From contig NC_073400.1 in NCBI RefSeq assembly GCF_028641065.1, positions 14,322,001 through 14,386,000 of the forward strand: a stretch of 64,000 nt of DNA, in the 5' to 3' direction. Shown here in pieces: positions 3,442-61,924 of this stretch. The translations under genes and the position numbers were made by a program. Source of the stretch: Leucoraja erinacea. Lineage: Eukaryota. How positions within the stretch are numbered: position 1 is the stretch's first letter; the number at the start of each line of letters is the position of its first letter. The notes under the pieces are model-generated. The model had not been told where the DNA came from. It did no database searches and worked only from the letters and a program-made list of their open reading frames with translations.

Positions 3442-3700
3442 AGGCACAAGAAACTTCAGATACTGTAAAACACAAAGTCCTGGTAACTCAGCAGGTAAAT
3501 CAAAGTAACTCAGCAGGTCAAGCAGCATATGTGGAAGGAATGGATAGGCAACGTTTCAAGCTGATGCTGTTGCTCAGACTTTTTCAGGTCTGGATCCCTC
3601 CTCTGATTGCCTGAGGATAGGTCCCAAACTGAAACGTCGCCAATCCAAACCTTCCACAGATGGCGCCTGACCCGATCAGTTACTCCACTGCTTTGTGTTA
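3442..3700. mobile_element. Older Penelope-derived fold-back element; further copies at ~695-780, 5760-5920, 6410-6580, 8520-8660, 10065-10210, 12465-12560, 20222-20370, 21025-21280, 22205-22360, 23027-23145, 25510-25615, 31230-31342, 38540-38700, 45458-45555, 55390-55605, 59578-59680, 63935-64000
   Basis: Shared consensus ...GCTGGAGTAACTCAGCGGGTCAGGCAGCATCTCTGGAG...GGTGACGTTTCGGG and its reverse complement; this copy has CTGAGGA...GAAACGTC at 3611-3638. Confidence 0.75.
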
Positions 3701-6690
3701 TTTTGGAGAGTAGCATAAGTTACAAGGGAAGAGTTTAGTAAATGTTCTATTCATCGCCTTGAAACTGAAAATGCAAGATAATTAAGCTGGATAGATCACG
3801 TCAATAAGAGAAAACAACTGGCTCTTCATTCATTTAAGGTTATAGGATTGGGCATGACTTTTCCTTCCAATGTTCATGTTGGAACTGAACCTTAACAATC
3901 CAATATGTTCAAGTGCAAATAAATTGACTGATTGAATGATTCAGCATGGAAACAGTCCCTTCATCCCACTGAGTCCACACTGTTCATCGTTCACCCACTC
4001 ACACTAATTCTATGTTATCCCACTTTCCCACCCATTCTCTAAAAAATAGGAGTTTATACATTAAGCTTACAGAGTTTAATGTATAAACTCACACATCTTT
4101 GTGCTGTTGGAGGAAACCAGAACACCCAAAGGAAACCTATGTGGTCACATGGAGAACGTACAAAATCCACAAAGACAGCACCTGAGGTCAGAATCAAACC
4201 TGAGTCTCTTTAGCTGTTAGGCAGCGGCTCTACCAGCTGTGCCACTTTGCGCCAAATCTACTTCACAGTTCACAGTCTGTGCAGGAGATAAGTGTGATAG
4301 AATGAATAAATAAGAGACAGCACAGCATATTGGAACTTTTCTAACAAACTTGAATCCCACCATGCGAACAGAAGGATTGATTGTGCCACTCAGCTGATTA
4401 TACAAGCTATTTGGTTCTATAATTTTGTTCAAAATTAAAGATTCAAAGAACTCCCTCCTGACCCATTCATGCAAAGCTACCATGTTCCCCAGCCATTTTG
4501 CAAACATCATTAGCATTCTGCCTGGTACCATCCATGTTTGCCTTTTGCAGTCTTCTAGCTATGATGTGTTAATACAGTCAGGAATTGATTGTTGGTCATT
4601 TAAACTACTTTACAAAAAGTCATTTCCTGTTCTCATCGTCTATCGTAAACCTGAAATGATGGTGAGTAAACAATAGCTTTTGTACAAAGTTGAAAAACCA
4701 TCCCTACATTTAAAAAACGGGGATGTGTTCCTGAAAAATATTGTGTTCAGCAAAATGTCACAAATTACAGGGGATGGGTAAAATAAACCAGGGGGTATTT
4801 TGGTAGTATTATGCCAGGAGCAAAGAAAGCCATCGTATGTGTTAATGAAATTAGATTTGTTAATTAAAAATAAGTGGCATAAAAACAACAATTGCTCAAA
4901 TGAACATTTATAAATACAAGAAAAACCAGTTAATTCTTGTATGTTTACTCTGCAGGACCTTCACCAGCACAGATAAATATACAATTTTGGTTGAAAGAAT
5001 AGATTTATAGGAGACCTTTGAACTTTCTTTAATTGGACTTTATCGGACTTCAATGTAATATCTTTACACTAAATGTTGTACCCTTTATCCTTTGCAATGG
5101 CTTGGTTGTACTCATGTATAGTCTTTTTTACTAGATAGCACACAAACAAAAGCTTTTCACGGTATCATGTGACAATAATAATAAACAAAACTAAATTAAA
5201 TTAAATTAAACTAAACTAAACAAACTATGTTTATGACATTAGTTTCCACAAGTGGGAGAGTCCAGGACTAGAGGGAGCAACCTCAGAATAAAAGGACGTT
5301 CCCTTGGAAAGGAGATGAGGAGGAATTTCTTTAGTCAGAGGGTGGTGAATCTGTGGAATTCATTGCCACAGATGGCTGTGGAGGCTGAGTCATTGTGTAT
5401 TTTTCAGGTGGATATGGCAGATTCTTGATTAGTAAGGGTGTCAAGGGTTAAGAGAAGGGTTGAGAGGGAAAGATAGATCAGCCATGATCGAATGGTGGTG
5501 TAGATTTGATGAGCCAAATGGCCTAATTTGCTCCTATGACTAATGGACGTATGCACCCATGAAGGCAAGCATAACAAATGCCTTGTTTACCACTCTCTCT
5601 ACATGTGTGGCCATCTTCAGGGAGTAGTCTAGAAGTGTTCAAACAAATAAATATCATGTGAAAGTCATGTTCAGGAAAAAAAACTTTGTGCATCCTGTTT
5701 TTCCACAGATTTGTGCTAACATGGCAATATATGGACAATCATGCCAGTTGGAATTGCACTGTTTCCCTGTCTGACCCACTGAGTTCCTCCAGTGCTGTTT
5801 TCTTAATAATTTTGCTGCTTAACTGAGCTATTTGATCCTCGATAAATGTAAAAGGGTCCCGACACAATACATCGCCCATACATGTACTCCAGATGTCAGG
5901 CGGCATTTTGCTTTTGTTTTCTATGTCTTCACAGCAGAATATACCAATTAAAAATATGGGCAGACATTTTCATATTTCATATTTCCTAATGGCATAACAA
6001 GTAGCCATTTGGCTCACTGAGTGTATGTTGGCTCAAAGTCCCATTCTCAATCCTCTGCTTATTTACTCTAAGGCCAAACAGAAATATTGCTGTTTAAATC
6101 ATCGGTATCACTGCTGCTGGAAATTCTGGGCCAATATGTGCGAAGAAATGATTATCAGATAGTTTTGTACAGCATCTGAGTTAATCGAATGTTGCCATTG
6201 ATATCAATTGTCCAAGTGAAAATGACTCTTTATTATTGTCAATACTAATAACTGAATAGTGCACAATATAGCTACTGCACTATTTACAACATCGATTGCA
6301 TAAATGAACAGCAGCATTCAAATTTATCTGGTGATTATTCCAACTGCTCCTGAAACTGTTATTTCTTTACTTCAAGATAACACATCAAAACCACAGCATA
6401 GTCTAATGGGACGATACAACGTGCTGGAGTTACCCAATGGATCAGGCATCATCTTAGGAGCACACGGATAGTTAGTTAGTTAGTCTGTACAAGGGTTTCG
6501 ACTCGAAATGGTGCCTATTTCCTTCGCTCCATAGATGCTGCCTCACCCAATGAGTTTCTCCAGCATTTTTGTCTACCTTAGTTAGTTAGTTAGTTTAGTT
6601 TATTGTCACATGTAATGAGGTACAGTGAAAAGCTTTTTTTGTGTGCTATCCTGTCAGCCTATACATGTTTACAATCTAGCCATCCACAGT

Positions 6691-7169
6691 CTCTCCATAC
6701 CCCCTGATCCCTTTAGCCACAAGGGGCACACCTAACTCCCTCTTAAATATAGCCAATGAACTGGCCTCAACTACCTTCTGTGGCAGAGAGTTCCAGAGAT
6801 TCACCACTCTCTGTGTGAAAAAAGTTTTTCTCATCTCGGTTCTAAAGGACTTCCCCTCTATCCGTAAGCTGTGACCCCTTGTCCTGGACTTCCCCAACAT
6901 CGGGAACAATATTCCTGCATCTAGCCTGTCCAACCCCTTAAGAATTTTGTAAGTTTCTATAAGATCCCTCCTCAATCTCCTAAATTCTAGCGAGTACAAG
7001 CCGAGTATCCAGTCTTTCTTCATATTAAAGTCCTGACATCCCAGAAATCAGTCTGGTAAACCTTCTCTGCACTCCCTCTATGGCAAGAATGTCCTTCCTC
7101 AGATTTGGAGACCAAAACTGTACTCCAGGTATGGTCTCAACAAGACCCTGTACAACTGCAGTAGAACCT
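6691..7169 (-). mobile_element. Young CR1 (HER1-like) 3' ORF2 fragment
   Basis: LGLYSLEFRRLR.DLIETYKILKG...TRGHSLR...FFTQRVVNLWNSLP; nearly identical to 34300-34770. Confidence 0.88.
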
Positions 7170-8510
7170 TATAAAGGATGAGGTTTCGGAGTACTTAGAA
7201 GTTCATAATAAAATAGGCCGAAGTCAGCATGTCTTTGTGAAGGGGAGGTCTTGCTTGACATATTTACTGGAATTATTTGAAGAAGTAAATAGTAGGACAA
7301 GGGAGAGTCAGTAGATGTTGTTTACTTAGATTTTCAGAAAGCCTTTAATAAGGTGCCACACGTTAGGCTGCTAAGGAGGATGAGAGCCCATGGTATCAAA
7401 GGACAGATACTAGCATGGATAGCAGGTTGGCTGGATGGCAGAAGGCAAAAAGTGGCAATAAAGATTTTTTTTCCCTGATCGGCTGCCAGTGACTAATGGA
7501 GTTCCTCAAGGGTCGGTACTGGGGCTGCTACTCTTCACATTGTATATTAATGATTTGGACAAGGAGATTGAAGGCTTTGTGGCAAAGTTTGCGGATAATA
7601 TGAAAATAGGTGGAGGAGCAGGTAATGTGAAGAAAGCAGTGACTCTGCAGAAGGACTTGGACAGGTTGGGAAAGTGGGCAGAGAAGTGGCAGATTGAATA
7701 TAGTGGAGCAAAGTGTGGAGTCATGCATTTTCGTAGTAGGAATAAAAGCGTAGACTGTTTTCTAAATGAGGTGAGAATCCAGAAATCGGAGGTGCAAAGG
7801 GACTTGGGAGTGCTGGGTGCAGGATTCCCCAAAAAATAATCTGCAAGTTGAATCGGTAATAAAGAATACAAACTTAATGCTAGCATTTATTTCAAGAGGG
7901 CTTGTATACAAAAACTGGGATGTAATGTTGAGGCTCTGTAAGGCTGCATGTGGAATATTGTGAGCAATTTTGGGCACCATATCTGAGGAAGGGTGTGCTG
8001 GCTCCGGAGAAGGTCCAGACGAGGTTTACAAGAATTATCCCAGGAATGAGTTGGTTAACATATGATGAGCGTTTATTGGCACTGGGCCTGTACTCGCTGG
8101 TTTAGAAGAATGAGGGGGGGATTGAAACATACAGAATAGTGAAAGGCTTGGATAGAGTGGATGTGGAGAGGATGTTTCCACTGGTGGGAGAATCTAAAAT
8201 TTAGCCTCAAAATTAGGAAGGAGGCGGGGTGAAATTTAATTTGAAGGAGGGTGGTTAGAGGAAGGAGGAGGAGAAATGTATTTTGTCAAAGGGTGGTGAA
8301 TCTGTGAAATTTCCACTGAAGACCTTGGAGGCCAAGTCAGTGGATATTTTTAAGGCAGAGATAGATTCCTGATTAGTGCAGGTGTCAGAGGTTATGGGAA
8401 GACAAGAGAACGGGGTTAGGAAGAAGAGATAGATCAGTCATGATTGAATGGCGGAGTAGACTTGATGGACCAAATGGCCTAATTCTACTCTTATTCCTTA
8501 CGACCTTATG
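7170..8510 (+). mobile_element. Decayed CR1-clade LINE (RT domain to 3' end)
   Basis: GVPQGSVLG, LYINDLD, KFADN.KIGG, LQ.DLDRL..W...WQ in 7489..7839; CR1 3' end TGGACCAAATGGCCTAATTCT; multiple frameshifts. Confidence 0.88.
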
Positions 8511-10594
8511 ACCTATGGAGTACATGGATGGGCGATGTATTGGGTCGGGACCCATTTACAGACTGATCCTTTCCAAAGATGCTGCCTGACCCGCTGTTAC
8601 TCCAGCAATTTTTGCCTTTTATTTGTAAATCATCATCTGTATTTCCCAGTGTCTACATCTTACTGCTCAAGAAGAATACATGTATTTAAAATGAAGGTTC
8701 TGTGGCGATGATTTAGAAAGTATATTAATTGTCATTTTGGATCAAATACCAACACAAATACCAGCACCAGCACCAGCACAGTGTATCTAGTATATTTTCA
8801 GCATGAGGAACCCATAGCTAAATTAATTATGGGACACTAATGTCAAGGGGAATTGATTCAAAATCAACTTCACTTACTCTTGGTCTTTAGTAGGTATCTG
8901 GATGACTGAAGTTCATTAACTGATGTCCTACAGGTAAAATCAATGCGTTCATGCAACTACAACTTGAAATGAAACTACAGATTCATTGTTGCTGCGTAGT
9001 CTCCAAAATAAGTCATAGAGTCATAGAGGGTCATAGAGCCGTACAGCATGGAAACAGGCCCTTCGGCCCAACTTGCCCACGCCAACCAACATGCTCCATC
9101 TACACTAGTTCCTGCATTTGGCTCAAATCTCTCTAAGCCTATCCTATCCATGTGCCTGTCCAAATTTTTCTGAAACATTGTGTTGTACCTGCGTTGAATG
9201 TTGTGATAATGCCTGTGTTAAAGCAGTACCTGAGATAGTGCCAGTAATGCTGAAACTGGAAAATGAGTTGAAGTCAATTGAATAAATGTTGAAGTCAACG
9301 TCTACAAGATTAATTCGGAAGGGAGAGGTGGAGAGTAGCTATCCAGGAGGGGGAAAACGCACATTTGCCAGTCAACAATCAGAACAACCTTGCACCCATG
9401 AAACCCTCTCTGTCACCAAAGCCCAGGACTGGTGCGACAAGCTTGATCTCTCCGCCCAATTTTCTTTCCATCAGTAAAACTCTCGTCCTTTCACCATGCG
9501 GGTTTGTAGGTTAATTGATCTCTGTAAACTGCCCCCTTGTGTGTAGGAAGTGGATATGAAAGTGGGATAACATGGAACCAATGTGAACAGGTGATCGATG
9601 GTCAGTGTGGACTCAGTGGGCCCCAGGGACTGTTACCATTAATCAAACATCTTATTGACATGTGCTGTAGAGCACACCTTGATTAATGCAACCAATACAA
9701 TCTCATATTTAGTTCACCAATTACTTTTTCAACAACACTTCTGATGCTCTTCCTGTCTCCTGTTTGTGGCCACATTCTCAAAACTTAGATATTTTTAATC
9801 ATATATGTGCAATCATTAGTGATGTGTCCATGAAGAGATGTGAAAATCAAAACTACATGGAAGGTGCCAGCCTCAATGATTGCAAGGGACCTTAATCATG
9901 TCAACTTGTTTATTCAGAAGAGACAATATGATAAAGTCTCTGTTAGAAATGCAGACATTTTTTATTAAATATACTACATAGCTAATGACGAGAGATTTGT
10001 ACAGGCATTTAAAGATCAAAAAGGCAAGATTTGTAAACTCATTAACCATTTTTATTTCAAAACTAACTCAGCAGGTCTGGCAGCATCTTACGAGAATATG
10101 GTGGATAGGTAACGTTTCGGGTCAGGACACTCCTTCCGCCCTAACCCGTTGAGTTCCTCCAGCACTTTGTGTTTTGCTCAAGATTCCAGCACCTGCAGTT
10201 CCTTCAATCTCCACCAATTCTTGTTTGGATGGTTTTAATATAGCTTTATATATTAGTTTGTATATTTTAGTAAAACATCGAGTTTACTGAAGAACTTGCT
10301 AAGTATAGAAAAAGAGAACTGCAGATGCTAGTTTACAAAAAAGAAAAAATGCTTTGTATGTTTTGAATAAGTGCCATCATTGCAGCTAAAAATCTAAGGG
10401 TTACTAATAGTAGTTTTATCAAAAGTTTAATAGTGTTTTATTTGTCGCACATGCAACTGCTCAGTGAAATTCATTTTTCATACATTTTACATGCTGGCAC
10501 TACCATTGTTGGTGCCATTATTATACAATATACCATAATATTCAATTTCCTATCTGGGTAATTAACTATATAATCAATTGGTATTTATTTATGT

Positions 10595-11225: not shown

Positions 11226-12832
11226 CATTTTCTTGGAACTCCCACTATTACAAGTACCTGCAATCCCAGAGAAAAAGGTATGAGAAATACTGTATCTCTT
11301 TGCCGGACTATACAACAGAAGAAATATTATAGTGATGTTTATCATCATTGATTAATAATTGTTGTTAAAACCCGTGCCAAGGCAAAAATGAGCTGAAACT
11401 GCCCTTTTTATGCATTGCTCTCTATTTCCCAGGGAACGAATGAATTGATAACAAAACTAAAAGAAAAGAGGTGATTAACAAAGCCTTGCTAATGAGTTTT
11501 CAGAGAAGATGTGGTCAGGTTGACATAATGCGGTAATTATTTCATTATCTGGTTCATTGTTGCTGGTGTTAGGAAAAAACTCACTGGCGTGTACAAGCCT
11601 CATTACAGACTAATTAAAAACCAGTCCCATGGATGTAGCTTTTAAGAAAATAATCCATCTTAAATTCCTCTTTCTCGTTAAGATGTGAAAACTGCTGCAC
11701 TCTCTACTCAGACATGAGAGGAGATTTCAGAGTTCAATTTAATGATAAGGATATATTATCAAGTGAAAGAAAATCTTACTGTGTCAGGACTATTTTCTTT
11801 GTGTAATCTTCTACTTGTGGATGGAAATCCTCTCTGGGATACTTTGCAAAAACAATATTGAGATTCAGAGGATATAATACAACGATACAATTCTTAACGA
11901 TGTGCTCCTCATTTTGGAGCGGCACAGTGGCACAGCTAGTAGAGCTGCTGCCTCAGAGGGCAAGAGACACAGGTTTTACACTAACCTCAGGTGCTATCTG
12001 TGTGGAGTTTGCATGTTCATCCTGTGACCGTGGAGCTTTCCTCTGGGTGCTCCAGTTTCCTCGCACATCCCAAAGACGTGCAGGCTTGAGGGTGAATTGT
12101 AAATTGCCTCTAAGGTGTAGAGAATGGATAGGAAAATGGGGTAACATAGAATGAGTGTGAATAGGTGATTGATGGTTGTGTGAACTCTGTAGGCCGAAAA
12201 GCCTGTTTCCGTGCTGCGCCAATATTGAAAGTTTTAATCGCAAAAGATTGATCAGACTAGGCCCAAGACCAGTGTTGGGTAAGAGATGAATAGGCATTGA
12301 GGTAGATAAATCGCAGTTACCCAGTGCAGTATAGTAAATACACGAATGACTATTTCATTAGCTGATTATTGGAGGTCTGAGTCAAACAGGCTGATGTTAC
12401 AAAGGCAGAAAATCCAATTTTATTGGAATGAATATCTGATTGAAAGCAAAAGTTTAAACAATCTGAGACACAAGAAACAGCAGATGCTGGAATATTGAGT
12501 AAGACGCAAAGTGTTGGAGGAACCCAGTGGGACAGGCAGCATCTACGGATGGAAATGGATAATATATTAGTGTGTAGGGAGGTCAGTATCTGTGAATGAC
12601 TGGGGGGTGTCCACCATCTTTGTAATCTCCTTCATTCCTGGGCATTCGAGTTGCTGAACCAGGCGGTGATGCAAACAGGCAATATGCTCTCTACTGTAAA
12701 CCTGCAGAGGTTCAAGAGAATATTTGTTGCCATGCCAAATATCCTAATCTTCATAGGCAGTAGAGGTGTTGATGGGCTATTCTTTATGATTGCGCATGGG
12801 TGATTTTTCAGGTCAAGACCCTTGTTCAGACA

Positions 12833-12860
12833 CTGAAGAAGGGTCTTGACCCGAAACGTC
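12833..12860 (+). ncRNA. Putative minimal type I hammerhead ribozyme core in a Penelope-derived fold-back element (12798-12966)
   Basis: CTGAAGA-A-GGGTC TT GACCC-GAAA-CG-TC: CUGANGA and GAAA boxes, helix II, palindromic ACGU helix III and a GUC cleavage triplet. Helix I is not well formed. Confidence 0.62.
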
Positions 12861-13609
12861 GCCCTTTCCTTCTCTCCAGAGATGCTGCCTGGCCCGCTGA
12901 GTTACTCCAGCATTTTGTGTCTATCTTCGGTGTATAACCAGCATCTGCAGTTCCTTCCCATACACATCTTCAGAGATATGCACACCCAGGAACTTGAAGT
13001 TGTTGACAGAACAATTGCCTCTATTATCCACCTCTACTCTCTTGAGTTTAGGAGAAGAAGAGATGATCTTATTGAAGTGCTCAAAATGCTCACTGTTCAA
13101 CCTAATTGCCTGTCTCATTTGTATGTTAGCTTTTAGTACTGGCTATCTCAAAGTAATCCAAAGTTACATTATTGATCTTAAGCATTCGGTGGATCCATAT
13201 GTTCCACATGCACATTCCGCATTCTAAAACATTTCTTTCAGGCATTCTGAAGGAAGCCATCTATTTGTTCTTATCCAATATAGACTCCATTACAGAGCAG
13301 TTCCTCCCTCTCACTTTGGCGATCTTTGAAGGCACCATCCATTAGAAAGCCTATCTGTTGATTGAAATTCCATTTGTAGAAACAAACATACCTTCGGCAA
13401 TAAGATAGAACGCAAAGGACCTGGAGATGTATCTTTAACGTGGCTCACTGTGGTTAATGGCAACTTAATGGAACTGTTCTTAAAGACCAATTAATTTCCA
13501 ATAAATCTGTCAAGATTGATTGAACTTGATTTATGGTGATGATCTGGTAGTCAGGTTTACTTAATTTTAACAGTGCATTCCAATGAGAAACCTAAAACCA
13601 CAAGTTTAG

Positions 13610-19647: not shown

Positions 19648-22600
19648 ACTCATCCTTTCTCTCCAGAGATACTGCCTGACACGTTGAGTTACTCCAGCAC
19701 TTTGTGTCCATCTTCACTAGAAAAAGTTCAATATATTTATATAATAAAATAACCGAAACAAACAATAGTAGCGCGTAGACAAAAACAGTGCTCCCAAGTC
19801 TACTGTATGTAGTTTGGGGCATAATTGGAGGTTGTAGTGTTTAATAGCATGATGGGTGTAGGTTTGGCATCTTTGTTTGATGACAGTAATAAGAAAGATT
19901 CACCACCTGAATGATTGATGACTTTCTTCCAAAGATGTGTCTAATTTGATATAGCCAGCAATTTTAGATTATTTTTGTATTTCCATATCATGAAACCTCT
20001 TTGAACTGTGACTTCAATTAATACCATGCATAATTACCAACCCATTTCCTTCCCAATTGCTTTCCATGACAGTGATGTACATCTGTAGGGGAAGACCTGC
20101 AAATGAAAACCATCCATAGATTGTTAATGCTGACGACAGTAGTGTCTCCTAGAGATAAGTAATATTTCACAATTAGTTTAGCATAAATCTGCAATGAAAT
20201 TGCTGTTAACTTGTTTGATGAAGATAGACACGAAATGCTGGAGTAACACAGCGGGTCAGACAGCACCTCTGCAGAAAAGGAATGGGTGACGTTTCGGGTC
20301 GAGTCTCTGCTTCAGATGAAGAGTTGCAGGAGAAGGAAATTAGAGGTTACGAAAAGGTACAGAACAAATCAGAGCCAGCACTACTCACTCAAGAAATGTG
20401 GCACGTGGTGGTACATGGGTAGGATAGGTTTAGAGGGATATGGACCAAATGAAGGAAGATGGGACTAATGTAGATTGGGCATGTTAGTCAGCATGGGCAA
20501 GTTGGGCTGAAAGGCCTGTTTCCACGCTGTATGGCTCTATCGCTCAGCTAACATGACATTTACCTTCATAAGACCAGCTTTTTGCCAAAGTTTACATCTT
20601 GACATGAAAAGCCAAAAACCCTTGGAATTACAGAGACTAATTTATGCAGGGGCACTTGTAAATAATTGAAAGAACAAATGTTGCAGTGTAGTAGCTGCCA
20701 CTTGTTAGCCTCTTTGGCAATTCATAGCTTAAGGAAAAAGTATCCATATTACATCTAAATTAATCCCCCTCAAGAGGAGGAGTAATGGATCTCCAACAGA
20801 CTATTGGTAAGTTTTCCTTTATGATTGTCTTCCTTTCTCTCCAGAAGCGAATCAAGGAATTTGGGTATGGTGCAGGGAAGTGGTGCAGAGGTACACAACA
20901 GATCAGAAACAAGGACTGTATGTCCTACTCCTGCTCTTATCTCTAATTGTGATAGTACCTGCATATGAAAGAAAACATGACAGTTAAACTCTGAAGCAAA
21001 ATCTGGTCCTATTTGGAACAAGTAAACACAAGGAACTGCAGCTGCTGGAATCGTGCAGAGACCACAAAGTGCTGGAGTAACTCAGTGAGTCAGGCAGCAT
21101 GTCTGGAGGGTATATACAAATGATGGAGCAACTTAGCGGATCATGCAGCATCTCTGGAGGACATGGATAAGTGATGTTTTGGATCGGGACCTTTCTTCAG
21201 ACTGATTGACTAAATCATCTATCCGTGTCCTTCAGAGATGCTACCTGACCTGCTGAATTCCTCCACCTTTGCATCCTACCAATTGTAAGTACATTTACTT
21301 CAGCTTTCTTGGCATGGTAATGGTAATAGACAATCAGAGATTGTGCTTGGCTGTCATAATGATCTTCTGGTTATGCAAATGTGAACAGAGAATGGTCTAG
21401 TGTATAATTCATGGTAGGCCTAAGGGCCTAACCAATGAACAATTCTATAACTATCTCCTGTTGAACTAGAGGACATAATTACAGCCAGTTTCCCTGAAGG
21501 AAGTGCAACTCAGAATTTATTGGCAGGAAGTAGCAAACATAGATGCCGCAAAATAACAGTAGGACCAACAGATAATGGCGGAAATTATCAATTCCGTCAT
21601 TCTCAATCATGCAACATGCGTAAACTCAAATTAGTGTCACTCATTCTCTCTGGAGCAATGGCATTCCTCATCGTTTCTAAAACCAATTTAAGTTGTGTTT
21701 GCCTGTAACTATTCCAACTACATTACACTTCACCTTAATTGGGGTGGTCTAGATTTAACTGGCAGACGTTCTCAGTAAGGTTGGCTTCAACAATGCGTAT
21801 CGCCCATGAAAAGCACAATTAGAGTTAGCTGGGCTTACATATTACCACCCAAGGATTGTCTTGCTGCCTGCATTAAGTTAAACGGTCACAAGTTAATTAA
21901 ACATTGTTAATCCTCATCATTCTGTAGATTTACTAGCATCCTTTAATTGGATGTATTTTTTCATCCAAGATCTTATAAAATATCCCATTGTGTGGCTGGG
22001 ATTTTGTTTTTGCTTCTTCGGGGACTGTGGAATTTACAATGCTATTTAATTCTCCATCTGCATGTCTCCGTAAATTGTTATATGATTCAGTTGCGGAGAA
22101 TAAATATCGATTTAACTTATGCATATATTTCCTGCCTATATCTGCTTAATGTTGCTGTCAGAACCTGCAGTCTTAAAGGTTTACAAACTGCAACGTTTCT
22201 TAGAAGACTCAAGGAACTGAAGATGCTGGAATCTTGGGAAGAACACAAATGCTGGAGTAACTCAGGGGGTCTGACAACATCTCTGGAGGACACGGAAAGG
22301 TGACGTTTCGAGTTTGGACCCTTCCTCAGACTCCCGTGGATAGGTGATGTTTTGAGTCAGAACAGAAAGCAGATTTTCCCACCCCCAGGAGAGTTTAATA
22401 GAACAGTGCTTCACAAGCCTTTCAGCCCACGACGCCTGTGCTAAACATGATGCCAAGACCATCTATTATCTACCTGCACATAGCCAATAACCCTCCATAC
22501 CCTGCATTCACACGTCTACCCAAAATAATTTTAAATGCCACTGTTGCATGTACCTCAACCACCAACCCTGACAACACATTCCAGGTACTCGCCAATGTCT

Positions 22601-28278: not shown

Positions 28279-29220
28279 AGATAGACACAAAAAGCTGGAG
28301 TAACTCAGAGGGACAGGCAGCATCTCTGGACAGAAGGAATGGGCAACGTTTCAGGTCGATACCCTTCTTCAGACTGAGAATCAGGGGAGAGAGAGTCTGG
28401 GAGATAAAGAAGTGTGAGAGTTCAAAAGAGATGATGTTCAAGGAAAATATAGAAAAGATCATTGTTAGCTAGGAGAAGGTGACAACAAAGCAAACAGATA
28501 AAATGTAATCAGAGGGACAGTCAGACTGGTCAGAGGACTGGGAAGGGGGAGGGATGGAGAGAGAGGGAAAGCAAGGGTTACTTGAAGTTACAGGTCAAAT
28601 TCATACCGCTGGGGTGTAAGCTGGCCAAGCGAAATCTGTAGTCACGGTGGCGCAGCGGTAGAGTTGCTGCCTTACAGCGAATGCAGCGCCAGAGACCCGG
28701 GTTCGATCCCAATTAAGGATGGTGTCTGTACAGAGTTTGTGCGCTTCCCCGTGACCTGCATGGGTTTTCTCTGAGATCCGCGGTTTCTTCCCCCATTCCA
28801 AAGAAGTGCAGGTTTGTAGGTTAATCGGCTTGGTAAACGTAAAAATTATCCCTTGTGGGTGTAGGATAGTGTTAATGTGCGGGGATCGCTGGTCGGCGTA
28901 GACCCGATGGGCCAAAGGGCCTGTTTCCGTGCTGTATCTCTAAACATAACTAAAACAAAATGAGGTATTGTTCCTCAAATTTGTGCTGGGCCTCACTCTG
29001 ACAATGGAGGAGGCCTAGGACAGAAAGATCAGTGTGGGGATGGGAGGGGGAGTTAAAGTGTTTAGCAACCGGGAGATTATGCGGACTGAGCGGAGGTGTT
29101 CTTTCGACACAAAACGTCGCCTATTCCTTCTCTCCAGAGATGCTGCCTGTTCCGCCGAGTTACTCCGGCTTTTTGTGTCTATCTTTGGTGTAAACCAGCA
29201 TCTTCAGTTCCTTCCTAAAC
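28279..29220. mobile_element. Penelope-like element fragment with inverted structure, 14-bp TSD and a nested V-SINE
   Basis: AAGATTCTGCAGGT is duplicated at 28265-28278 and 29221-29234. A minus-strand PLE 3' region (28279-~29100) is followed by a plus-strand pLTR end with tail (~29105-29220). Confidence 0.85.
28641..28950 (+). mobile_element. tRNA-derived V-SINE (HE1-like), well-preserved copy
   Basis: A-box-like GGTGGCGCAGCGG, B-box GGGTTCGATCCC, V-domain-like GAGTTTGTGCGCTTCCCCGTGACCTGCATGGGTTTTCTC, CR1-like tail GGGCCAAAGGGCCTGTTTCCGTGCTGTATCTCTAAA. Confidence 0.88.
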
Positions 29221-31541: not shown

Positions 31542-31662
31542 AGGTACACAAAAAAGCTGGAGAAACTCAGCGGGTGCAGCAGCATCTATGCTGCTGCACC
31601 TGCTGAGTTTCTCCAGCTTTTTTGTGTACCTTCGATTCTCCAGCATCTGCAGTTCCTTCTTA
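31542..31662. mobile_element. Penelope-derived fold-back mini-element (45-bp hairpin + tail) with 17-bp TSD
   Basis: AACACATGCCCCACCTA at 31525-31541 and 31663-31679; arms 31541-31585 and 31588-31632 are reverse complements with one mismatch. Confidence 0.9.
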
Positions 31663-34186: not shown

Positions 34187-34800
34187 ACATAGATACATAG
34201 AAAATAGGTGCAGGAGTAGGCCATTCGGCCCTTCGAGCTTGCACCGCCATTCAATATGATCATGGCTGATCATCCAACTCAGTATCCCGTACCTGCCTTC
34301 TCTCCATACCCCCTGATCCCTTTAGCCACAAGGGCCACATCTAACTCCCTCTTAAATATAGCCAATGAACTGGCCTCAACTGCCCTCTGTGGCAGAGAGT
34401 TCCAGAGATTCACCACTCTCTGTGTGAAAAATGTTTTTCTCATCTCGGTCTCAAAGGTGCGACCCCTTGTCCTGGACTTCCCCAACATCGGGAACAATCT
34501 TCCTGCATCTAGCCTGTCCAACCCCTTAAGAATTTTGTAAGTTTCTATAAGATCCCCCCCTCAATCTCCTAAATTCTAGCGAGTATAAGCCGAGTCTATC
34601 CAGTCTTTCTCCATATGAAAGTCCTGACATCCCAGGAATCAGTCTGGTGAACCTTCTCTGCACTCCCTCTATGGCAATAATGTCCTTCCTCAGATTTGGA
34701 GACCAAAACTGTACGCAATACTTCAGGTGTGGTCTCACCAAGACCCTGTACAACTGCAGTTGAACCTCCCTGCTCCTATACTCAAATCCTTTTGCTGTGA
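34187..34800 (-). mobile_element. Young CR1 (HER1-like) 3' fragment with intact 3' end
   Basis: LYRVLVRPHL.YCVQFWSP, LGLYSLEFRRLRG, FFTQRVVNLWNSLP; 3' end GGGCCGAATGGCCTACTCCTG plus TATGTATCTATG tail. Confidence 0.9.
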
Positions 34801-37800
34801 AATATGATAAGGGAATAATGTTTATTGCAAGGTAAAGCCAGCAAAGTCCGATCATGGATAGGCTGAGGGTCATCAATGACGTAGATAGTAGTTCAGGACG
34901 GCTCTCTGGTTGTGGTAGGGTGATTCATTTGCATGGTAAACAGCTGGGAAGAAACTGTCCCTGAATATGGAGGTGTGCATTTTCACAATTCATTACCTTT
35001 TGCCTGATGGGAGAGGGGAGAAGAGGGAGTGGTCAAGGTGTGACTCGTCCTTGGTTATGCTGCTGGCCTTGCTGAGGCAGCATGAGGTATAAATGGAGTC
35101 AATGGAAAGGAAGTTGGTTTATGTGATGGTCTGGGCTGCGTCTGCAATTTGCTGCAATTTCTTATGGCCCTGGATGAATACTGCCTGTTTTAGAAGACAT
35201 TAGCTCTGAGGATAGGTTGATCAAACCTGGATTGTTTTCTGTAGAACATCGTAAGTTAATAATAAGATCTTTTTTAAATTGTCATTGCACACAAGCGCAA
35301 CGAGATTTGGTTGAGGGCAGACCCGATAGAAAAATGTAAGATTATGAGAAGCATAAATAGGGTAGATGGTCAATACTTACTTCCCATAATGGAATGTGCC
35401 ATCAGGGTGATATCAGTACCATTCCAATTGTGCTTATTGATCGACACTGGTTAGAAGTCCACTCGTCCTACAGTGTTAATGTTTTCACCTTTATGTTCAA
35501 ACCCTTCCTTTACCTCAACAACATGCCCCCACCCTCCCTTCCTCCATCTCTCTATGGAGTTTGGACGCCCTCCCGTAACCTGCATGGGTTTTCTCCGGAT
35601 GCTCCGGTTCCCTCACACACTTAAAAGGCATACGGATTTGTAGGTTAATTGGCTTTGGTGGACTGAAGGGCCTGTTTCCACACTTTGATTATAAAATTAA
35701 AAAAAACTAAACTACCAAAATTAGAGGGACAATTTTAACAAAAAAAAATCCTAAAACAAATAAAGGTTCAGGAGTACTCCAACAGTAAAACTAAGTCTTG
35801 AATAGAGAACGGAGGTCACAGAAAAATTTAATTAGGTAACAAACTAGGTCTTGATTACAGAACAAAATGATTATCCACAAGTTTAACTTAGTTGACAGTA
35901 GTTCCAATTTTATGTTCCAATGATGGGTTTATGCTATTACATAATCAATGAAGTCCCTGAAACTTGGGTGTCATCACTTGGGTGAACTTTTGTTCCGCCT
36001 TCCATCATGGTGAGGAATGTGTAGGAGTCACTGTGGTGGATGTTAATGTTAAAATGTAATTTGTGTTTTCCATTGCTTTTTATTTGTATGACTGACTTGG
36101 CAAATGAAATTCCTCATATGTTGCCAAACATACTTGGCTATTAAAGTATTATTGTGATTGTGATCACTGCTGCATTCTATGTCTCTGCTTTTAAGCTTTG
36201 TCTGGGGTTCCATGTCACCACATTAGGCCAATCCATATCGCTTTTTACAAATTATTAAGCCTATTCTTTCCCCTACAATGTCCATTAAAGCCATTCCTTC
36301 CATTGCCTTTTCAGTAGCTGCCTGGTAGATATTGTGGCTGTTTCAGCTGAAAAGATGAATTATTGCTCTCTCCATTATCTAGCTGGTAGCCATTATGTAC
36401 ACAAGTATGTTATAATGCCCTGGAAAATATCAATGTTTTACATGGTGGATGGTGGGAACTCTTCTCCCTTCCACCTTCTCATCCATGCCTCCAGCGTAGC
36501 ATTGGAAAAGTTTGGAGTCAGCTCTCAATTGTGATATTCCTTGCTTATTTGAACAAATTAATCAGAGCTGATAATACATGGAAATACAATCAAGTCTATC
36601 TCAAGGACAATAGGCAGAACTACAGAGTGCTGAATTCTCAGCATTGTAGCGCATCAGTTCCAGAGACAAAGTCCAATGTCTGAAATGTAGTAGAGGTGAA
36701 TTAGGTAGAACCCTAGCTTATAGAAGGACCACTTAGAAGCCCAATAACAGAGAGTAAGAAACTGTTCCTAAGTCTGATGGTGGCATTAAGAGTTCCAAGT
36801 ATTCAAGTGGAAAATTGCTTGGGAGACTAGTGTGTAGAAAATAGTTCTCAGCATTGTAGCGCATCAGTTCCAAAGCCAAAGTCCAATGTCCATAATGGGG
36901 TAGAGGTAAACCTTAGCTTACGGAACGACATTTCACAAGCCTGATAAGAGAGGGGACACCAGTTTCCGAGTCTGGTGGCCACCCTTTCAAGCTTCTGTAT
37001 CTTCTGCCAAATGGGAGCAGGGAGAAGAAGAATGACTGGGTTGGGACAAGTCTTTGATTATGCTGGGTGCTTTTCTGAGGCAGCGTTAAGTATGGATGGA
37101 GCCAACGGTGGGAAGTTGGGTCTGTGTGATGGACTGGGCCACATGAGCATTTCTCACTGTGTGCAAGATTCCCCTACATCACTTCTGTCTCAATAGCAAA
37201 GGTTCAGTCATATTTTTCTCATGATATCTAATTTTCTGAAAAGGTATTTTTAAAGGTTCAAGGTTGCTATAAATCAGCATAATGTATTCTTCTGGCTGCT
37301 GCTGAAATGATTTGAACAGGACACAATGAGTTATTATTGTAATGTTGTTTACCTGCACATATCTTGCTCTGCGAAAATGGCTTTTCCTCAGGTAATAATG
37401 GTGTAATGTATGTCTCAGCTACTGCAGAGCCGAGATGGGTAGTGATTACATAAAGCTTTGATGAGATCAGTCGGAGAGCACGGCTTCGGAATAACTGCTC
37501 CGAGATCTATTTATATTGCGGACATCAGAATTGCTTCGAACTTCTGAAAAAGTATTTTTCATTACAAATCCAAAATATAAATCCTGACAGTTCTTGAGTT
37601 CATCCAATGAAGAATTGATTCTGACATACAAATTAACCTACAAAAAAATATATTTATATTTAATGAAATAAATATCCTGAAGTAGTTTTATTCTCACCTG
37701 TGCATAGTCAACAAAACCAAATTATTGTTGGTCTAATTTCATTGATTTAAATCCTCTATTATACAACTGCAGTTTCGGGTCGTAAAGTCATACAGTGTGA

Positions 37801-38400: not shown

Positions 38401-39106
38401 ATACAAGGGATGGGAGGCCTTTTAAAAAAAAATTCAAAATGACGGTGATGTAAATCTGCATATAATGCACCTTAACAAATTATATATCTGCCAGAAAAAA
38501 ACACAAAATATGAACAAAGTAAGATTAACTATAACTAAAGACAGAATGCTGGAGTAACTCATCAGGTCAAGCAGCATCTCTGGAGGACATGGATAGGTGA
38601 TGTTTTAGGTCACGACCCAAAATGTCACCAGAGATGCTCCCTGACGTTGAGTTACTCCAGCACTCTGTTTAAAAAAAACAGCATCTGCAGTTCCTTGTAT
38701 TGCAATGATTAATTATTATCCTTTCCGCGTCGCAAAGTGTGCTGCAACATTTTCCAATCAATCATTAAATTTTACAAGGTGTTTTCAACAAGCTTCTTCA
38801 TGGTTTACTTGTCAGACTGAAATAATAGTTGCAAAAGAAATCGGCAAAGAAATGTGTTTGTAGTCAGAAACATTAAATGTACTTCCACTTGCAAGATTCA
38901 ATTCCATTGCCGTTATACAGAGAACATGTTTTACTAACAACTGGAGATTAATTTGCAAGCAATATTATGTAATGTAATAGAATGATTGCAGAATTTTTGT
39001 GTGAATATATTATGCTGTTGATGAAGAGGTAGAGTGACAGATAATGTGGATGTGGAATGGATGTTTCCACTAGTGGGAGTGTCTAAGACCAGAGAGCACA
39101 ACATAA

Positions 39107-40467
39107 TGTGTGGGAAGGAACCGCAAATGATGGTTTAAACCGAAAATGGACACAAAAAGCTGGAGCAACTCAGCGGGTCAGGCAACTTCTCTGGAGAAAA
39201 GGAATAGGTTTCAGGTCGAGAACCTTCTTCAGACTGAGGATCAGAGGAAAGAGAGACAGTGATGTAGAGAGATATAGAACAAATGAATGAAAGATATGCA
39301 AAAAAGTAACAATGACACAAATCATCTTTCGGGAACAGGGGTTCCCCTCTTCCATCATAGATGAGTATCTCTTACTCACAATTCCTCCGTCTATGCCACA
39401 TCTGCACCCAAGATGAGGTGTTCCATACCAGGACATCGGGATGTGCTCATTCTTTAGGTAACGGTTGTTCCCATCTTCCTTCATTGATGAGGCCCTCACT
39501 CGTATCTTCTCGATATCCCAGTTCTGCTCTTACTCCCCCTCCCCCTAGTCACAACAGGGACAGAATCCCTCCAGTACTTACCTTCCAGCCCATCAGCCAT
39601 CGCATTCAACACGTAATCCTCCAACATTTTCACCACCTCCAACGGGATCCCACCACTAGTCACATCTACCCAGAGACCCTTCCCCCCACAACTTCCTGGT
39701 TAACTCATCCCTTCCCACCCAAACCACCCCCTCCCCAGATACCTTCCCCTGCAACCACAGGAGATGCAACACCTGTCCCTGTACCTCCTCCCTCGACTCT
39801 GTCCAGGGACCCTGACAGTCCTTTGAGGTTAGGGCAGAGGTTCACTTGCACCTCCTGCAACCTCATCTACTGTATCCGTTGTTCAAGGTATGGACCCTTA
39901 TACATTAGCAAGACCAAACGTAGACACTGTTTCACTGAACACCTTCACGCAGTCTGCCTGGACCTACTTGATCTCCCGGTTGCCAAACACTTTAATTCTC
40001 CTTCCCATTCCCACACTGACCTTTCTGTCCTAGGTCTCCTCCATTGTCAAAGTGAGGCCAAATGCAAATTGAAGGAACAGCATCTCATATTTTGCCTGGG
40101 CAGCTTTCAACCCAGTGGTACGACTACTGATTCCTCTAACCTCAAGTAACTCTTCCATTCCCTCTCTCTCCATCCCTCCCCCACCGTCATACCAGTTTCA
40201 AAGTCTTCTCGTTGAATCTCACTGTCTCTACTCATTCTCACCTAGCACTCAGTTAACAATGGCATGTTTGCTTTATCATTGTTACTTTTTTTGCATATCT
40301 TTCATTTATTTGTTCTATATCTCTCTACATCACCATCTATATCTCTTGTTTCCCTTTCCCCTGACTCTCAGTCTGAAGAAAGGTCTTGACCCGAAATGTC
40401 ACCTATTCCATTTCTTCAGAGAGGCTGTCTGGCCCATTGAGTTACTCCAGCTTTTTGTGTCTATCTC
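39107..40467 (+). mobile_element. 5'-truncated Penelope-like element: RT C-terminal/linker remnant + GIY-YIG endonuclease + pLTR, with an inverted pLTR copy at the left end
   Basis: ORF 39361..40149 has FTCTSCNLIYCIRCSRYGPLYISKTKR...PVAKHF...EQHLIFCLGSFQPSG (PLE GIY-YIG with CCHH linker). 39150-39317 is the reverse complement of 40275-40467. It splits a CR1 3' fragment with a degraded TSD CCAGAGAGCACA / CCAAAGGGCACA. Confidence 0.88.
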
Positions 40468-52484: not shown

Positions 52485-52680
52485 AGATACAATGTGCTGG
52501 AGTAACTCAGCGGGTCAGGCAGCATCTCTGGAGAAAAAGGATGGGTGACGTTTCGGGTTGCAATCCTTCTTCAGACTTAAGTGCCACCCAAAACATCAAC
52601 CATCCTTTTTCTCCAGAGATGCTGCCTGACCCGCTGAGTTATTCCAGCACTGTGTGCATCTGTAGTTCCTTCCTGCACAA
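52485..52680. mobile_element. Penelope-derived fold-back element
   Basis: Arms GTGCTGGAGTAACTCAGCGGGTCAGGCAGCATCTCTGGAGAAAAAGGATGG and its reverse complement; degraded TSD TGATATTGGTG / TGATATTGATG. Confidence 0.8.
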
Positions 52681-52726: not shown

Positions 52727-52860
52727 TTCAGTCTGAAGAAGGGTTTCGGCCCGAAACGTTGCCTATTCCCTTGGCTCCATAGATGCTGCTGCACCCGCTG
52801 AGTTTCTCCAGCTTTTTTGTGTACCTTCGATTTTCCAGCATCTGCAGTTCCTTCTTGAAC
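52727..52860 (+). mobile_element. 134-bp Penelope-derived mini-element (hammerhead core + pLTR end + tail) with 12-bp TSD
   Basis: TCTAGAATATTC at 52715-52726 and 52861-52872; core CTGAAGA A GGGT TTCG GCCC GAAACGTT at 52733-52760. Confidence 0.85.
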
Positions 52861-58599: not shown

Positions 58600-59232
58600 C
58601 TGGCATGAAGCATTCGAGAGGCTGGTAAACAGGCCCTAGCCTCTGGCAGACTCAGCGACCGTTTCGCCAAATACTTACGCCAAGGCCTACTGGATCTTCC
58701 AGCTCTGAACCATTTTAACTTCCTATTCCCAAAATGACTTTTCTGTATTGGGAACCTATTCAGGGTGAGGTCACGTGCAACTTGGAGGACCAGCACCTCA
58801 CGCTTGTGTAGCTTCCAACCCAACTGTGTGAACACAATTTCTCCAATTTTAGGTAACTGCTACAAAACCCCTGCTCCTCTTTCTCCCCTCCCCCTCTCTC
58901 CCCTGTGCCTCACTTGCATTTGCATCCATTTCTCCCCTTCTCCTTCCCTTCCACCCACCTCCCTTCCTCTGCCTTCACATTCACAACACTTCAATCCTTT
59001 TGGCTGTCACCCTCAGTTTTAATCTCTGTTCCAACCATCTGCCTATCAAACCACCCCCTCGCCTATGTCCACCTATAACCTAGCACACTTTGTCCCTCTC
59101 CACTCTCCCAGCTTTCATTCCCAAGCCCACCTCTGCGATTAGTCTGAAGAGGGATCCCGACCTGAAACGTCACCTATCCTTGCCCTCCAGAGATGATGTC
59201 TGACACATTGAGTTACTGCAGCACTTTGCATC
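58600..59232 (+). mobile_element. Decayed Penelope-like 3' fragment (GIY-YIG C-terminus, pyrimidine-rich UTR, pLTR with degenerate hammerhead core)
   Basis: Similar to 39900-40467 (ccattttaacttccta, cagcacctca, gcttccaaccca); CTGAAGA...GAAACGTCACC at ~59144-59174. Confidence 0.75.
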
Positions 59233-59453: not shown

Positions 59454-61924
59454 TCCCAGCACCTTGGAATGTTCCAACCTACAGCCTTCACTTGCCAACG
59501 TCCCTTGCACTGGAAGACCAACAAGTTGCAGGCAGACCGAAGTATGTCCGTTCCCTAGATGATGATCTACTGTTGTTATCAGTATGCCGAGAAACATTGT
59601 GTAGGAATGAACTGCAAATGCTGGTTTGCACCAATGATAGACACAAAATGCTACAGTAACTCAGTGGGTCAGGCAGCATCCAAAGCAAGCGCTGTCTGCG
59701 GAGGGCGCTCAGCATCGCCAAGGACTGCTCTCACCCCAACCATGGACTGTTTACCCTCCTACCATCCGGGAGGCGCTACAGGTCTCTCCGTTGCCGAACC
59801 AGCAAGTCGAGGAACAGCTTCTTTCCGGCGGCTGTCACTCTACTCAACAACGTACCTCGGTCTCACCACCCCACCCCCCCCCCCCCCCCCCCCCGGACAC
59901 TTATTATTATTTATTCAAATCGTTTGCTATGTCGCTCTTCAATGAAGATGCTAAATGCATTTCGTTGTCTCTGTACTGTACACTGACAATGACAATTAAA
60001 ATTGAATCTGAATCTGAATCTGAATCTGATCTCCGGAGTAAAGGAATAATTGACGTTTCGGTTCGAGATCCTTCTTCAGCTGCTGCTGGAAGATTAACAA
60101 CTTGGGAACAACTCATAGCACAGATGTTTTTGCTCCTCATTGGAACAGTGGTTCCCATGTCTTGGACCTTAAGTGGTCCACCAAAAGGCTCAAAGGCTCG
60201 TCGGTGGTTGTGGTCTGTCCGATGACTCGTAGGTTGGCGGGACGGGGAACCCACCTGAAGGCTCGTCGCGCAGCGCGTAACCGGGAGCTAAGAGTGGGAG
60301 GGTGAACCGGGGTATTGAGATGGTTGGGCGAGGAGAGGAGAGAGACGTCGGTTCACGGGAACTGCTCCAGTACATCGAGCGCACGTGCTGACTGGACTTT
60401 AGACTTTGAATAATGGTGTTAAAAATGGTGGCGCCTACACGTGTGATATATGCAAAATGAATTTCACTGTGCAGTTGCATATGTGACATATAAAACACTA
60501 TTGAACTCTATCCCTGTTCAAAAGTAAAATACCACAAATGCTGGAAATTGAACGCGAAACAAACTACTGGAAACAGCCAATTAGTCCAGCAGTCATCCAC
60601 GGAGTGGGAAATCGAGTTAACATTTCAGGTTAATGGTCTCACGTCAGAATGAGGAAACAAAGTTTTACGTGAAAATAAAAAGGAAACAGCAGAGAAGGCC
60701 CAAAACATCTCAGCAGGTCAGGCAGCATCTGTGGAAGGAGAAACAATCAAAGGTTTACATCTGAGAAATTAACAGAGAGAGGAGAGAGGTGCAAGCCAGT
60801 GGTGTTTTAAGTTACAAGTTGCTTCAGAATGGAGGGAGTAGGGCAAAGAACAAAAGGGGAAGAGACTAAACAGGAAAGTGGTGAGGGAGTTCATATGAAA
60901 TAGGAGGAGAATTAGCCCATTCGGCCCATCTAGTCTACTCCACCATTCACTCATGGCCCATCTATCTTTTCCCTCTCAGCCCCATTCTCCTGCCTTCTCC
61001 CCATAATCCTGTACTAATCAAGAATCTGTCAATCTCCACCTTAAAAATACCCATTGACGGCCTCCATCTGTGGCAAAGAATTCAACAGATTCACCACCAT
61101 CTGACTAAAGAACGTCATCATCTCCTTTCTGAAGGTATGTCCTTTTATTCTGAGGCAATGGCTTCCGGCCCTAGTTTCCCCCACTACCAGAACCATCCAC
61201 CAGAGTTGGCTGATTAAGGTTTGAAAGGACTACTGAATATTGGTTTGGTGGAGTTGTAAATGGAAAAAGATAAATACAAACTGAAGTTAAAAGATTGAAA
61301 AAAAACTCACAAATGGTAACAATTGGAGTTACAAGGCCACAGTTGAACTTGTGAAAGCTGTCTTATTCCCTCTTCTTTTTCCATTTATTCATATTTCCTT
61401 ACAACAAAGGAGATTTTTTAACCCATGACGTATTGACCTGTATTCTATTCCCCCTCACATGTTTAGTTTAGTTTAGTTTATTGTCACATGTACCGAGGTA
61501 CAGTGAAAAGTTTTTTTTTGTTAAGTGCTATCCAATCAGTGAAAATACTATACATGATTACAATAACGGGAATAACGTTTCGAGCAAGATAAAATCCAGT
61601 AAAGTCCGATTAAAGATAGTATGAAGGTCTCCGATGATGTAGATGGGAGGTCAGGACTGCTCTCGCTACTGAAGTAGAGATGGTTGAAAACTTCATTTAC
61701 CTAGGAGAAAATATCATCAATAACTTGTCCGTACCCACCCATATGAAAAGCTCCCTCTTAACTAAGCAATGGCCAAGAAAGCACACCAACGCCTCAACTT
61801 CCTTTGAATGCTAAGGAAGTTTGGTATTTCCCCAACAACTCTTACCAACTTTTACTGATGTACCATAGAAAACATATTATCGGGATGCATCACAGCATGC
61901 TTTGGGAACAACTCCATCCAAGGC

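What the first reader, a model, noticed from the sequence alone, without database searches (positions are those of the whole stretch)
12833..12860. Dispersed family of minimal hammerhead-ribozyme cores with covarying helix II
Seen: CTGA(A/G)GA-A-[stem]-GAAACGT(C/T) recurs across the window (intact or near-intact at 3611, 12833, 19620, 40373, 52733 and 59144 on plus; ~22300, ~28345, ~52548 and ~60052 on minus). Helix II varies while keeping pairing: GGGTC/GACCC, GGGTT/AACCC, and GGGT-TTCG-GCCC. Known: Penelope-like elements carry minimal type I hammerheads with a palindromic helix III that works as a dimer, and an extra A between A9 and G10.1 is tolerated in natural hammerheads. Inference: this locus holds more than 10 ribozyme-bearing inserts that could cleave a host pre-mRNA through dimers. 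Caveat: helix I is only 2-3 bp.
Basis: partly seen in the sequence, partly recalled or inferred. Interest (0 to 1): 0.72.

Follow-up and report, generated by a model that had tools for sequence, protein, structure and literature searches.

The report
Penelope retrotransposon stubs with hammerhead cores
These motifs are the miniature self-cutting-RNA (hammerhead) signature in the end repeat of a known kind of jumping gene that has scattered very many short, mostly decayed copies through this fish genome; they likely serve the jumping gene's own RNA and likely do not cut host gene transcripts.

Summary
All ten cores exist. They are the minimal type I hammerhead in the terminal repeat (pLTR) of a Neptune-type Penelope-like element (PLE), a class published in 2014. 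The window holds a broken PLE (39364-40143) with core 40373 just downstream; a 775-residue open PLE frame elsewhere carries the 52733 variant. The genome has 23,550 exact cores and, by extrapolation, about a million pLTR-end fragments.

The quoted helix II 'covariation' is not covariation: two examples change loop letters, the third is a one-sided U-A to U·G change. True compensatory change appears only across 35 distant families from metagenome contigs.

Inserted copies decay about neutrally: catalytic G12 is lost in 22 of 85 copies. Only 4 of the ten keep all three helices. The anchor copy lacks helix I and is predicted to fold back on an inverted copy.

Host pre-mRNA cutting is unsupported: intact cores in seven long introns lie 31 sense to 21 antisense, and no host exon was found here. 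Copy 5' ends cluster just before the core, not at the cut site, so uncut RNA is the likely template. The scan found this family repeatedly elsewhere in this genome.

The parts
12833..12860 (+). Anchor core: C3-A9, bulged A, helix II GGGT/ACCC with CTTG loop, GAAA-CG-TC; no helix I because its 5' neighbour is the inverted arm
12796..12832 (-). Inverted, decayed copy of the core abutting the anchor; predicted long fold-back (-52.9 kcal/mol, z -5.96) that pairs CUGAA and helix II
12861..12969 (+). Rest of the pLTR end and tail downstream of the anchor core
39364..40143 (+). 5'-truncated, frameshifted Neptune-type PLE frame: RT thumb, CX4CXXC linker, GIY-YIG endonuclease (46% identity to residues 504-774 of the open frame in L390, E 6e-52)
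40147..40465 (+). 3' pLTR of that element; core at 40373-40400 has lost the 10.1-11.1 pair and the helix III palindrome
39102..39345 (-). Inverted 5' pLTR copy of the same insertion; core starting at 39232 has a 5-nt deletion after GAAA
19620..19647 (+). Core with all three helices (loop TGCA, helix I 3 bp); solo stub
52733..52760 (+). Core of the youngest subfamily (UUCG loop, U·G at 10.4-11.4, GUU triplet, U·G in helix I); solo stub between CTAGAATATTC direct repeats
3611..3638 (+). Decayed core, helix II 3 of 4 pairs, inverted neighbour upstream
59144..59171 (+). Decayed core, helix II 3 of 4 pairs
22302..22329 (-). Core with all helices paired (one G·U)
28345..28372 (-). Core with G·U at 10.1-11.1 and upstream pLTR sequence; an endonuclease fragment lies upstream on the same strand at 28956-29078
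52547..52574 (-). Decayed core, helix II 3 of 4 pairs, in an inverted pair
60052..60079 (-). Decayed core without helix I, cut off by a (TGAATC)n array
31546..31627 (.). Near-perfect hairpin made of two head-to-head pLTR ends without cores; source of a below-threshold Rfam mir-5879 match

Best explanation
The cores are the minimal type I hammerhead motif in the pLTR of a very abundant Neptune-type Penelope-like retrotransposon, and the window's copies are short, mostly decayed insertions of that pLTR end, likely copied from uncut element RNA and likely inert toward host transcripts. Shown: the core lies about 70-400 nt behind the GIY-YIG frame. Copies mostly end about 95 or 130 nt after the core start (the PLE 'tail'). 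Many start 1-4 nt before C3, and many carry an inverted arm. After insertion they decay about neutrally. Inferred: the PLE protein nicks DNA and starts reverse transcription at one of two sites about 95 or 130 nt into the RNA. It reads through the uncut cleavage site and runs off the RNA 5' end at the TCAGT just before the core, a likely initiator, which gives a ~130-bp stub. Priming from both nicked strands would give the inverted pairs. The ribozyme is likely kept by selection only in the active master elements, where two cores on the element's own RNA would pair through ACGU and cut weakly, probably with help from the PLE protein.
For: PLE link: 42 of 59 endonuclease C-termini in a 1.664-Mb sample have a core within 500 nt downstream, against 6.6% of random windows. 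L390 holds a 775-residue open frame with DKG, RT (Pfam RVT_1 E 4.7e-6, below cut-off), CX4CXXC linker and GIY-YIG (E 0.006, below cut-off), with the 52733-type core 119 nt after its last codon. Abundance: 23,550 exact matches, reversed control 0; 768 pLTR ends in 1.664 Mb. Architecture equals the published consensus and the published Acropora Neptune example (PMC4209133 supplement). Selection at family level: across 35 collapsed metagenome families with the same core, helix II pairs 10.2-11.2 and 10.3-11.3 and helix I pairs 1-3 stay paired through changes on both sides (24, 23, 23, 18, 19 of 35; shuffle p 0.001, 0.002, 0.0006, 0.028, 0.008; slid controls p>=0.2); three of these loci carry GIY-YIG pieces at E<=1e-4 plus a fourth in two pieces. 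Decay: G12 lost in 22 of 85 copies anchored without the core, like other CpG G's (19 of 85, 19 of 85, 12 of 85); 43 mismatches at non-CpG core letters versus 53.5 expected, p 0.08; 7,813 G12A cores genome-wide against 23,550 wild-type. Ends: 405 of 717 copies reach the core start, 14 start at positions 27-31 around the cut versus 36.5 per 5 nt in positions 7-26; homology fades between -1 and -4 in 100 solo copies; target-site repeats in 24 of 133 versus 2-6 in controls. Internal RT start, nicking of both strands, protein-assisted cleavage and use of uncut RNA are reported for a Poseidon PLE (PMC11167929).
Against: No cleavage was tested. In analyses that selected copies by alignment into the core, non-CpG core letters were better conserved than flanks (5.8% versus 7.2%, p 0.005; 91 versus 142 expected within subfamilies). 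This shrinks to p 0.08 with core-independent anchors (n=87), so slight selection during amplification is not excluded. The transcription start is inferred from copy ends and a recalled initiator consensus; 4 RNA runs showed no pile of starts or ends on the pLTR, though fragmented libraries are poorly suited. No copy with an upstream pLTR joined to the ORF start was found among 23 extended loci. Helix I is only 2 bp, shorter than in most published examples. The metagenome set includes chance matches, and relatedness among families is only partly removed.
Confidence: 0.8

Rival explanations
1. One reading: inserted cores dimerise within a host pre-mRNA and cut it.
For: About 63 of 405 core-bearing copies are intact, which extrapolates to roughly 80,000 in the genome. 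Family sequence is in RNA reads from both strands. PLE hammerheads cleave weakly as dimers in vitro (PMC4209133).
Against: Intact cores in seven long introns: 31 sense, 21 antisense (p 0.21, 95% CI for the sense share 0.45-0.73); strictest set 22:14; other copies 239:290. No host exon among 97+79 window frames and the 150 longest of 489 flank frames. Fully formed same-strand window copies are 6 and 33 kb apart, the partner helix is 4 bp (-3.1 kcal/mol), and the dimer fold is 10 or more kcal/mol above the cofold minimum for all ten copies. G12 decays at CpG rate.
Confidence: 0.05
2. The ribozyme cuts tandem PLE RNA into unit lengths that circularise; copies come from circles, so the cut site is read through.
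For: Proposed in PMC4209133. It also predicts no cDNA ends at the cut site.
Against: A circle gives no reason for the sharp 5' boundary 1-4 nt before C3. Unprocessed RNA was the main substrate for a Poseidon PLE in vitro. It may still hold for rare long copies.
Confidence: 0.1
3. The ~130-bp unit is a separate SINE- or retrozyme-like family mobilised in trans.
For: Solo stubs with target-site repeats exist (24 of 133) and outnumber endonuclease-bearing copies about 13 to 1 (768 versus 59).
Against: Each stub subfamily resolved with enough copies also has copies with upstream pLTR, and the youngest one has ORF-bearing parents with the same diagnostic letters. No tandem arrays of the unit appear in the window.
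Confidence: 0.05

Closest known systems
Minimal hammerheads (min-HHR) in pLTRs of metazoan PLEs (Cervera and de la Pena 2014, PMC4209133)
   Same: CUGANGA-H, G10.1-C11.1, GAAA, palindromic 15.2-16.2, NUH; location in the pLTR behind the endonuclease; mostly solo or opposite-strand copies. The Acropora digitifera Neptune example has the same 4-bp helix II, tetraloop and GAAACGUC.
   Different: Helix I is 2 bp (published mostly 3-5; 2 in D. virilis, Culex, Oikopleura). Copy number is far higher (23,550 exact versus about 4,000-9,000 in coelacanth and Xenopus). No shark or skate example was found in the searched supplement.
Neptune-clade EN+ Penelope-like elements (Craig et al. 2021, PMC8557442)
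   Same: RT then CX2-5CXXC linker then C-terminal GIY-YIG; 5' truncation, inverted 5' pLTR, 30-40 bp tail.
   Different: Clade assigned from motifs only; Nematis shares the linker and no tree was built.
Poseidon PAc of Anolis (Frangieh et al. 2024, PMC11167929)
   Same: Two RT start sites giving a tail; no reads starting at the cut site; uncut RNA as template.
   Different: PAc's ORF starts in stem II; here the ORF start relative to the core was not found. PAc is Poseidon clade.
Animal non-LTR retrozymes (bioRxiv 10.64898/2026.07.22.740005)
   Same: pLTR-derived, type I hammerhead, reported in one chondrichthyan.
   Different: Retrozymes are tandem arrays; these are dispersed solo or inverted stubs.

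Membership tests
min-HHR of metazoan PLEs | Catalytic boxes CUGANGA and GAAA..UH with one unpaired base after A9 | tested here: met
   10 of 10 named copies; invariant in all subfamily majorities except G12A in the oldest clusters, which reflects CpG decay
min-HHR of metazoan PLEs | Helix II closed by G10.1-C11.1 | tested here: met
   Family majority GGGT/ACCC; fully paired in 5 of 10 window copies
min-HHR of metazoan PLEs | Palindromic helix III for dimer formation | tested here: met
   ACGT in 9 of 10
min-HHR of metazoan PLEs | Helix I of at least 2 bp | tested here: met
   2 bp in the family majority and in 8 of 10 copies; absent in anchor 12833
min-HHR of metazoan PLEs | Compensatory changes in helices | tested here: inconclusive
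   None within this genome's family; present across 35 distant families with the same core
min-HHR of metazoan PLEs | Location in a PLE pLTR | tested here: met
   42 of 59 endonuclease ends versus 6.6% background; L390
min-HHR of metazoan PLEs | Self-cleavage as a dimer | not testable with these tools
   Needs an in vitro assay; RNA reads showed no ends at the site
Rfam hammerhead families | Match to a curated covariance model | tested here: not met
   No hammerhead family among 5 matches at E<=1; expected for a motif lacking helix III (inference)
Neptune EN+ PLE | RT with DKG motif followed by C-terminal GIY-YIG | tested here: met
   L390 open frame of 775 residues (both Pfam scores below curated cut-offs)
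Neptune EN+ PLE | CX2-5CXXC linker between RT and endonuclease | tested here: met
   CNHRRCNTC in the window, the same motif in many of 30 loci
Neptune EN+ PLE | Inverted 5' pLTR and 30-40 bp tail | tested here: met
   267 of 717 copies have an inverted arm; 3' ends peak at 88-96 (229) and 123-131 (245)
Neptune EN+ PLE | Placement in the Neptune group by RT phylogeny | not tested
   No reference set at hand
Non-LTR retrozyme | Tandem array of hammerhead-bearing units | tested here: not met
   No such array in the window; the closest intact or near-intact same-strand pair in the sample is 88 nt apart, the rest 371 nt or more

The most novel reading that the evidence does not exclude
The element's RNA starts at the TCAGT initiator 2-4 nt before C3, so the hammerhead is the very 5' end of the mRNA. 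Its protein-assisted dimer cleavage would remove the cap and first ~31 nt and act as a self-limiting switch. The roughly one million stubs would then be run-off cDNAs of RNAs that escaped cutting, a genome-wide record that makes the open question of what PLE hammerheads do directly testable.
Probability: 0.2. Interest if true: 0.55.

Novelty: new member of a known kind. Interest (0 to 1): 0.2.

Why it matters
As a class this is known. What it adds is scale, and a data set on an open question (PMC8557442 calls the role of hammerheads in EN+ PLEs unclear). Copy ends argue that uncut RNA is the template, and the lack of strand bias in introns argues that tens of thousands of intact cores are tolerated by host genes. 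If host pre-mRNAs were cut, that would be a large hidden load on gene expression, but the evidence points the other way.

Tried and rejected
Rfam scan: no hammerhead match; the mir-5879 and psbJ matches at 31546-31627 are a pLTR palindrome. Intron idea (donor at the ORF stop, acceptor at the CAG before the core): 0 genomic matches for the spliced junction and no such joint among the 15 best-supported RNA joints shown, 603 not shown; rejected as unsupported. Double changes at helix II pair 10.2-11.2 genome-wide (677 hits, first 100 seen) are mostly an unpaired A·A variant spread as cargo of a DNA transposon, not compensation. No RNA holder was listed for the anchor region; whether the window is transcribed, and on which strand, stays open. 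Host exon search by Pfam found only retroelement RT; short or poorly conserved exons would be missed. Single-strand folding does not recover the hammerhead fold for solo copies; this is weak evidence for so small a motif. 3' ends at the cut site could not be counted because copies were found by their downstream part. PDB sequence search of the PLE frame: no match. Literature search for an orientation-bias test: 0 papers with 4 of 5 terms; this covers only the held library. The Luense et al. dimer paper is not held and is known here only through a review passage.

Full report
Observation. A relaxed motif occurs 9 times in the window and in none of 100 shuffles. Each core is the start of a ~130-bp repeat; a profile finds 50 fragments in the window at E<=1, 22 of them with a core-like stretch within 8 mismatches. 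Rfam has no hammerhead match. Of the ten copies, 5 have a fully paired helix II, 9 the ACGT palindrome, 8 the two proximal helix I pairs, and 4 all of these. The anchor 12833 has no helix I: its 5' neighbour is an inverted copy (12796-12832), with which it is predicted to form a -52.9 kcal/mol fold-back (z -5.96).

What it is. Window 39364-40143 is a frameshifted fragment of a Penelope-like element: RT thumb, CX4CXXC linker and GIY-YIG. An inverted pLTR precedes it and core 40373 follows 226 nt after it. In a 1.664-Mb sample (this region plus seven 200-kb stretches), 42 of 59 endonuclease ends have a core within 500 nt downstream, against 6.6% for random windows. Locus L390 holds a 775-residue open frame with RT, linker and endonuclease, followed by the GGGT-TTCG-GCCC core also seen at 52733. 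That subfamily is the youngest (median divergence 3.6%, n=36, versus 7.1% and 12.3%). The domain order and linker fit the Neptune clade (PMC8557442, passages); no tree was built. The only longer homologue returned is a little-skate protein at 60% identity, so the genome is likely an elasmobranch. The genome has 23,550 exact cores. The sample has 768 pLTR ends, about one million by extrapolation from a non-random sample.

Covariation. I found copies with a profile of the downstream part only and kept 717 of 768; 51 were dropped because the match began past model position 12. Helix II is GGGT/ACCC with a tetraloop. Across subfamilies clustered without the core, the only stem changes are one-sided: U-A to U·G at 10.4-11.4 and at helix I pair 1, in the same young subfamily. 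Double changes do not exceed independence, apart from 11 versus 6.4 at 10.2-11.2. Genome-wide, the first 100 of 677 double changes at that pair are dominated by an unpaired A·A form (218 exact) that spread inside a ~700-bp DNA transposon. Real compensation appears at greater distance. Pairs 10.2-11.2 and 10.3-11.3 and helix I pairs 1-3 stay paired more often than in shuffles; 10.4-11.4 does not, and slid controls are flat. One family matches the published Acropora Neptune hammerhead except at N7. So the motif class is under structural selection, but the window's copies do not show it.

Decay. In 87 copies anchored upstream and downstream without the core, G12 (in a CpG) is changed in 22 of 85, like other CpG G's. 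Non-CpG catalytic letters carry 43 mismatches against 53.5 expected (p 0.08). Genome-wide G12A cores number 7,813. Analyses that needed alignment into the core gave a larger core excess (5.8% versus 7.2%; 91 versus 142). These are biased toward clean cores, but slight selection during amplification is not excluded. 63 of 405 core-bearing copies are intact.

Host pre-mRNA. I took 200 kb from between same-strand exon matches of seven laminin-G or CUB genes; orientation rests on those matches, not on an annotation. Of 590 copies, intact cores lie 31 sense to 21 antisense (p 0.21, CI 0.45-0.73), near-intact 3:6, the rest 239:290. The strictest intact set is 22:14. There is no sign of selection against sense cores. 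In the window no host exon was detected (97 and 79 frames; 150 longest of 489 flank frames), and its transcription could not be examined. Fully formed same-strand copies are 6 kb (minus) and 33 kb (plus) apart, with a 4-bp partner helix.

How it likely works. Shown: 3' ends peak at positions 88-96 and 123-131. 405 of 717 copies reach the core start, and in 100 solo copies homology fades between -1 and -4. Only 14 copies start near the cut site, fewer than the 36.5 per 5 nt just upstream. 267 copies have an inverted arm, and 24 of 133 solo copies have target-site repeats (controls 2-6). Inferred: reverse transcription starts internally at two tail sites and runs on uncut RNA to its 5' end, and priming on both nicked strands gives inverted pairs. 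This follows the Anolis Poseidon element, where RT starts internally, both strands are nicked, the hammerhead needs the protein and uncut RNA is the main substrate (PMC11167929, parts 1-2 of 4). TCAGTCT fits the initiator consensus YYANWYY (recalled), and D. virilis Penelope has an internal promoter (PMC2377424, passages). I first read the boundary as a splice acceptor, which failed; the transcription-start reading comes from earlier notes of this scan. Four RNA runs of unverified species show the family on both strands and no pile of starts or ends.

Comparison and verdict. Minimal hammerheads in pLTRs, including fish Neptune elements, solo and opposite-strand copies and weak dimer cleavage, are described in PMC4209133 (main text parts 1-2 of 4; supplement file 2 parts 1-2 of 3; file 1 not searchable). 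No shark or skate example appears in the searched file. A 2026 preprint reports retrozymes in one chondrichthyan (part 1 of 5 and passages); its supplements are closed and may list this family. A review (PMC6765202, passages) summarises dimer cleavage; the primary dimer paper was not available. Paper searches: (listings only unless named above). This is a new member of a known kind, found at least eight times elsewhere in this genome by the scan. Interest 0.2.

Noticed in passing
L340-L369 (G000:C1 and elsewhere; 218 exact hits): A ~700-bp non-autonomous DNA transposon with ~66-bp terminal inverted repeats (starting AGGGCCTGTCCCACTT) and 3-bp TAA/TTA target repeats (PIF/Harbinger-like, label recalled) carries a head-to-head pLTR pair as cargo. 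Its core has an A·A mismatch in helix II. This is a second, protein-independent-of-PLE route by which cores spread.
   Followed up: partly
window 41578-45208 (-): Young-looking LINE with a 901-residue open frame (RVT_1 E 3e-29, weak APE hit) and an upstream 390-residue frame; clade not determined.
   Followed up: no
window 31546-31627: Near-perfect hairpin from two head-to-head pLTR ends mimics a miRNA precursor (mir-5879, 46 bits, gathering 97).
   Followed up: yes
family majority, positions -4 to +4 (e.g. window 52728-52736): TCAG-T-CTGA is a palindrome overlapping the core start; 183 of 267 inverted copies have at least one arm reaching it, so it may serve as the joint for two cDNAs.
   Followed up: partly
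L390:1452-3776 (+); also L391, L392: Long open PLE frames (775, 616, 568 residues) all belong to the UUCG/GUU subfamily, suggesting it was the most recently active.
   Followed up: partly
L051-L080, between ORF stop and core: The 150-300 nt pyrimidine-rich pLTR part upstream of TCAGT differs strongly between families, while the core and the ~100 nt after it are shared: a sharp conservation boundary.
   Followed up: partly
window 7462-7839, 6676-7047, 34526-34924, 47247-47753: Fragments of other LINE RT or 3' ends; about 53% of the window is repeat-masked by the local sample.
   Followed up: no
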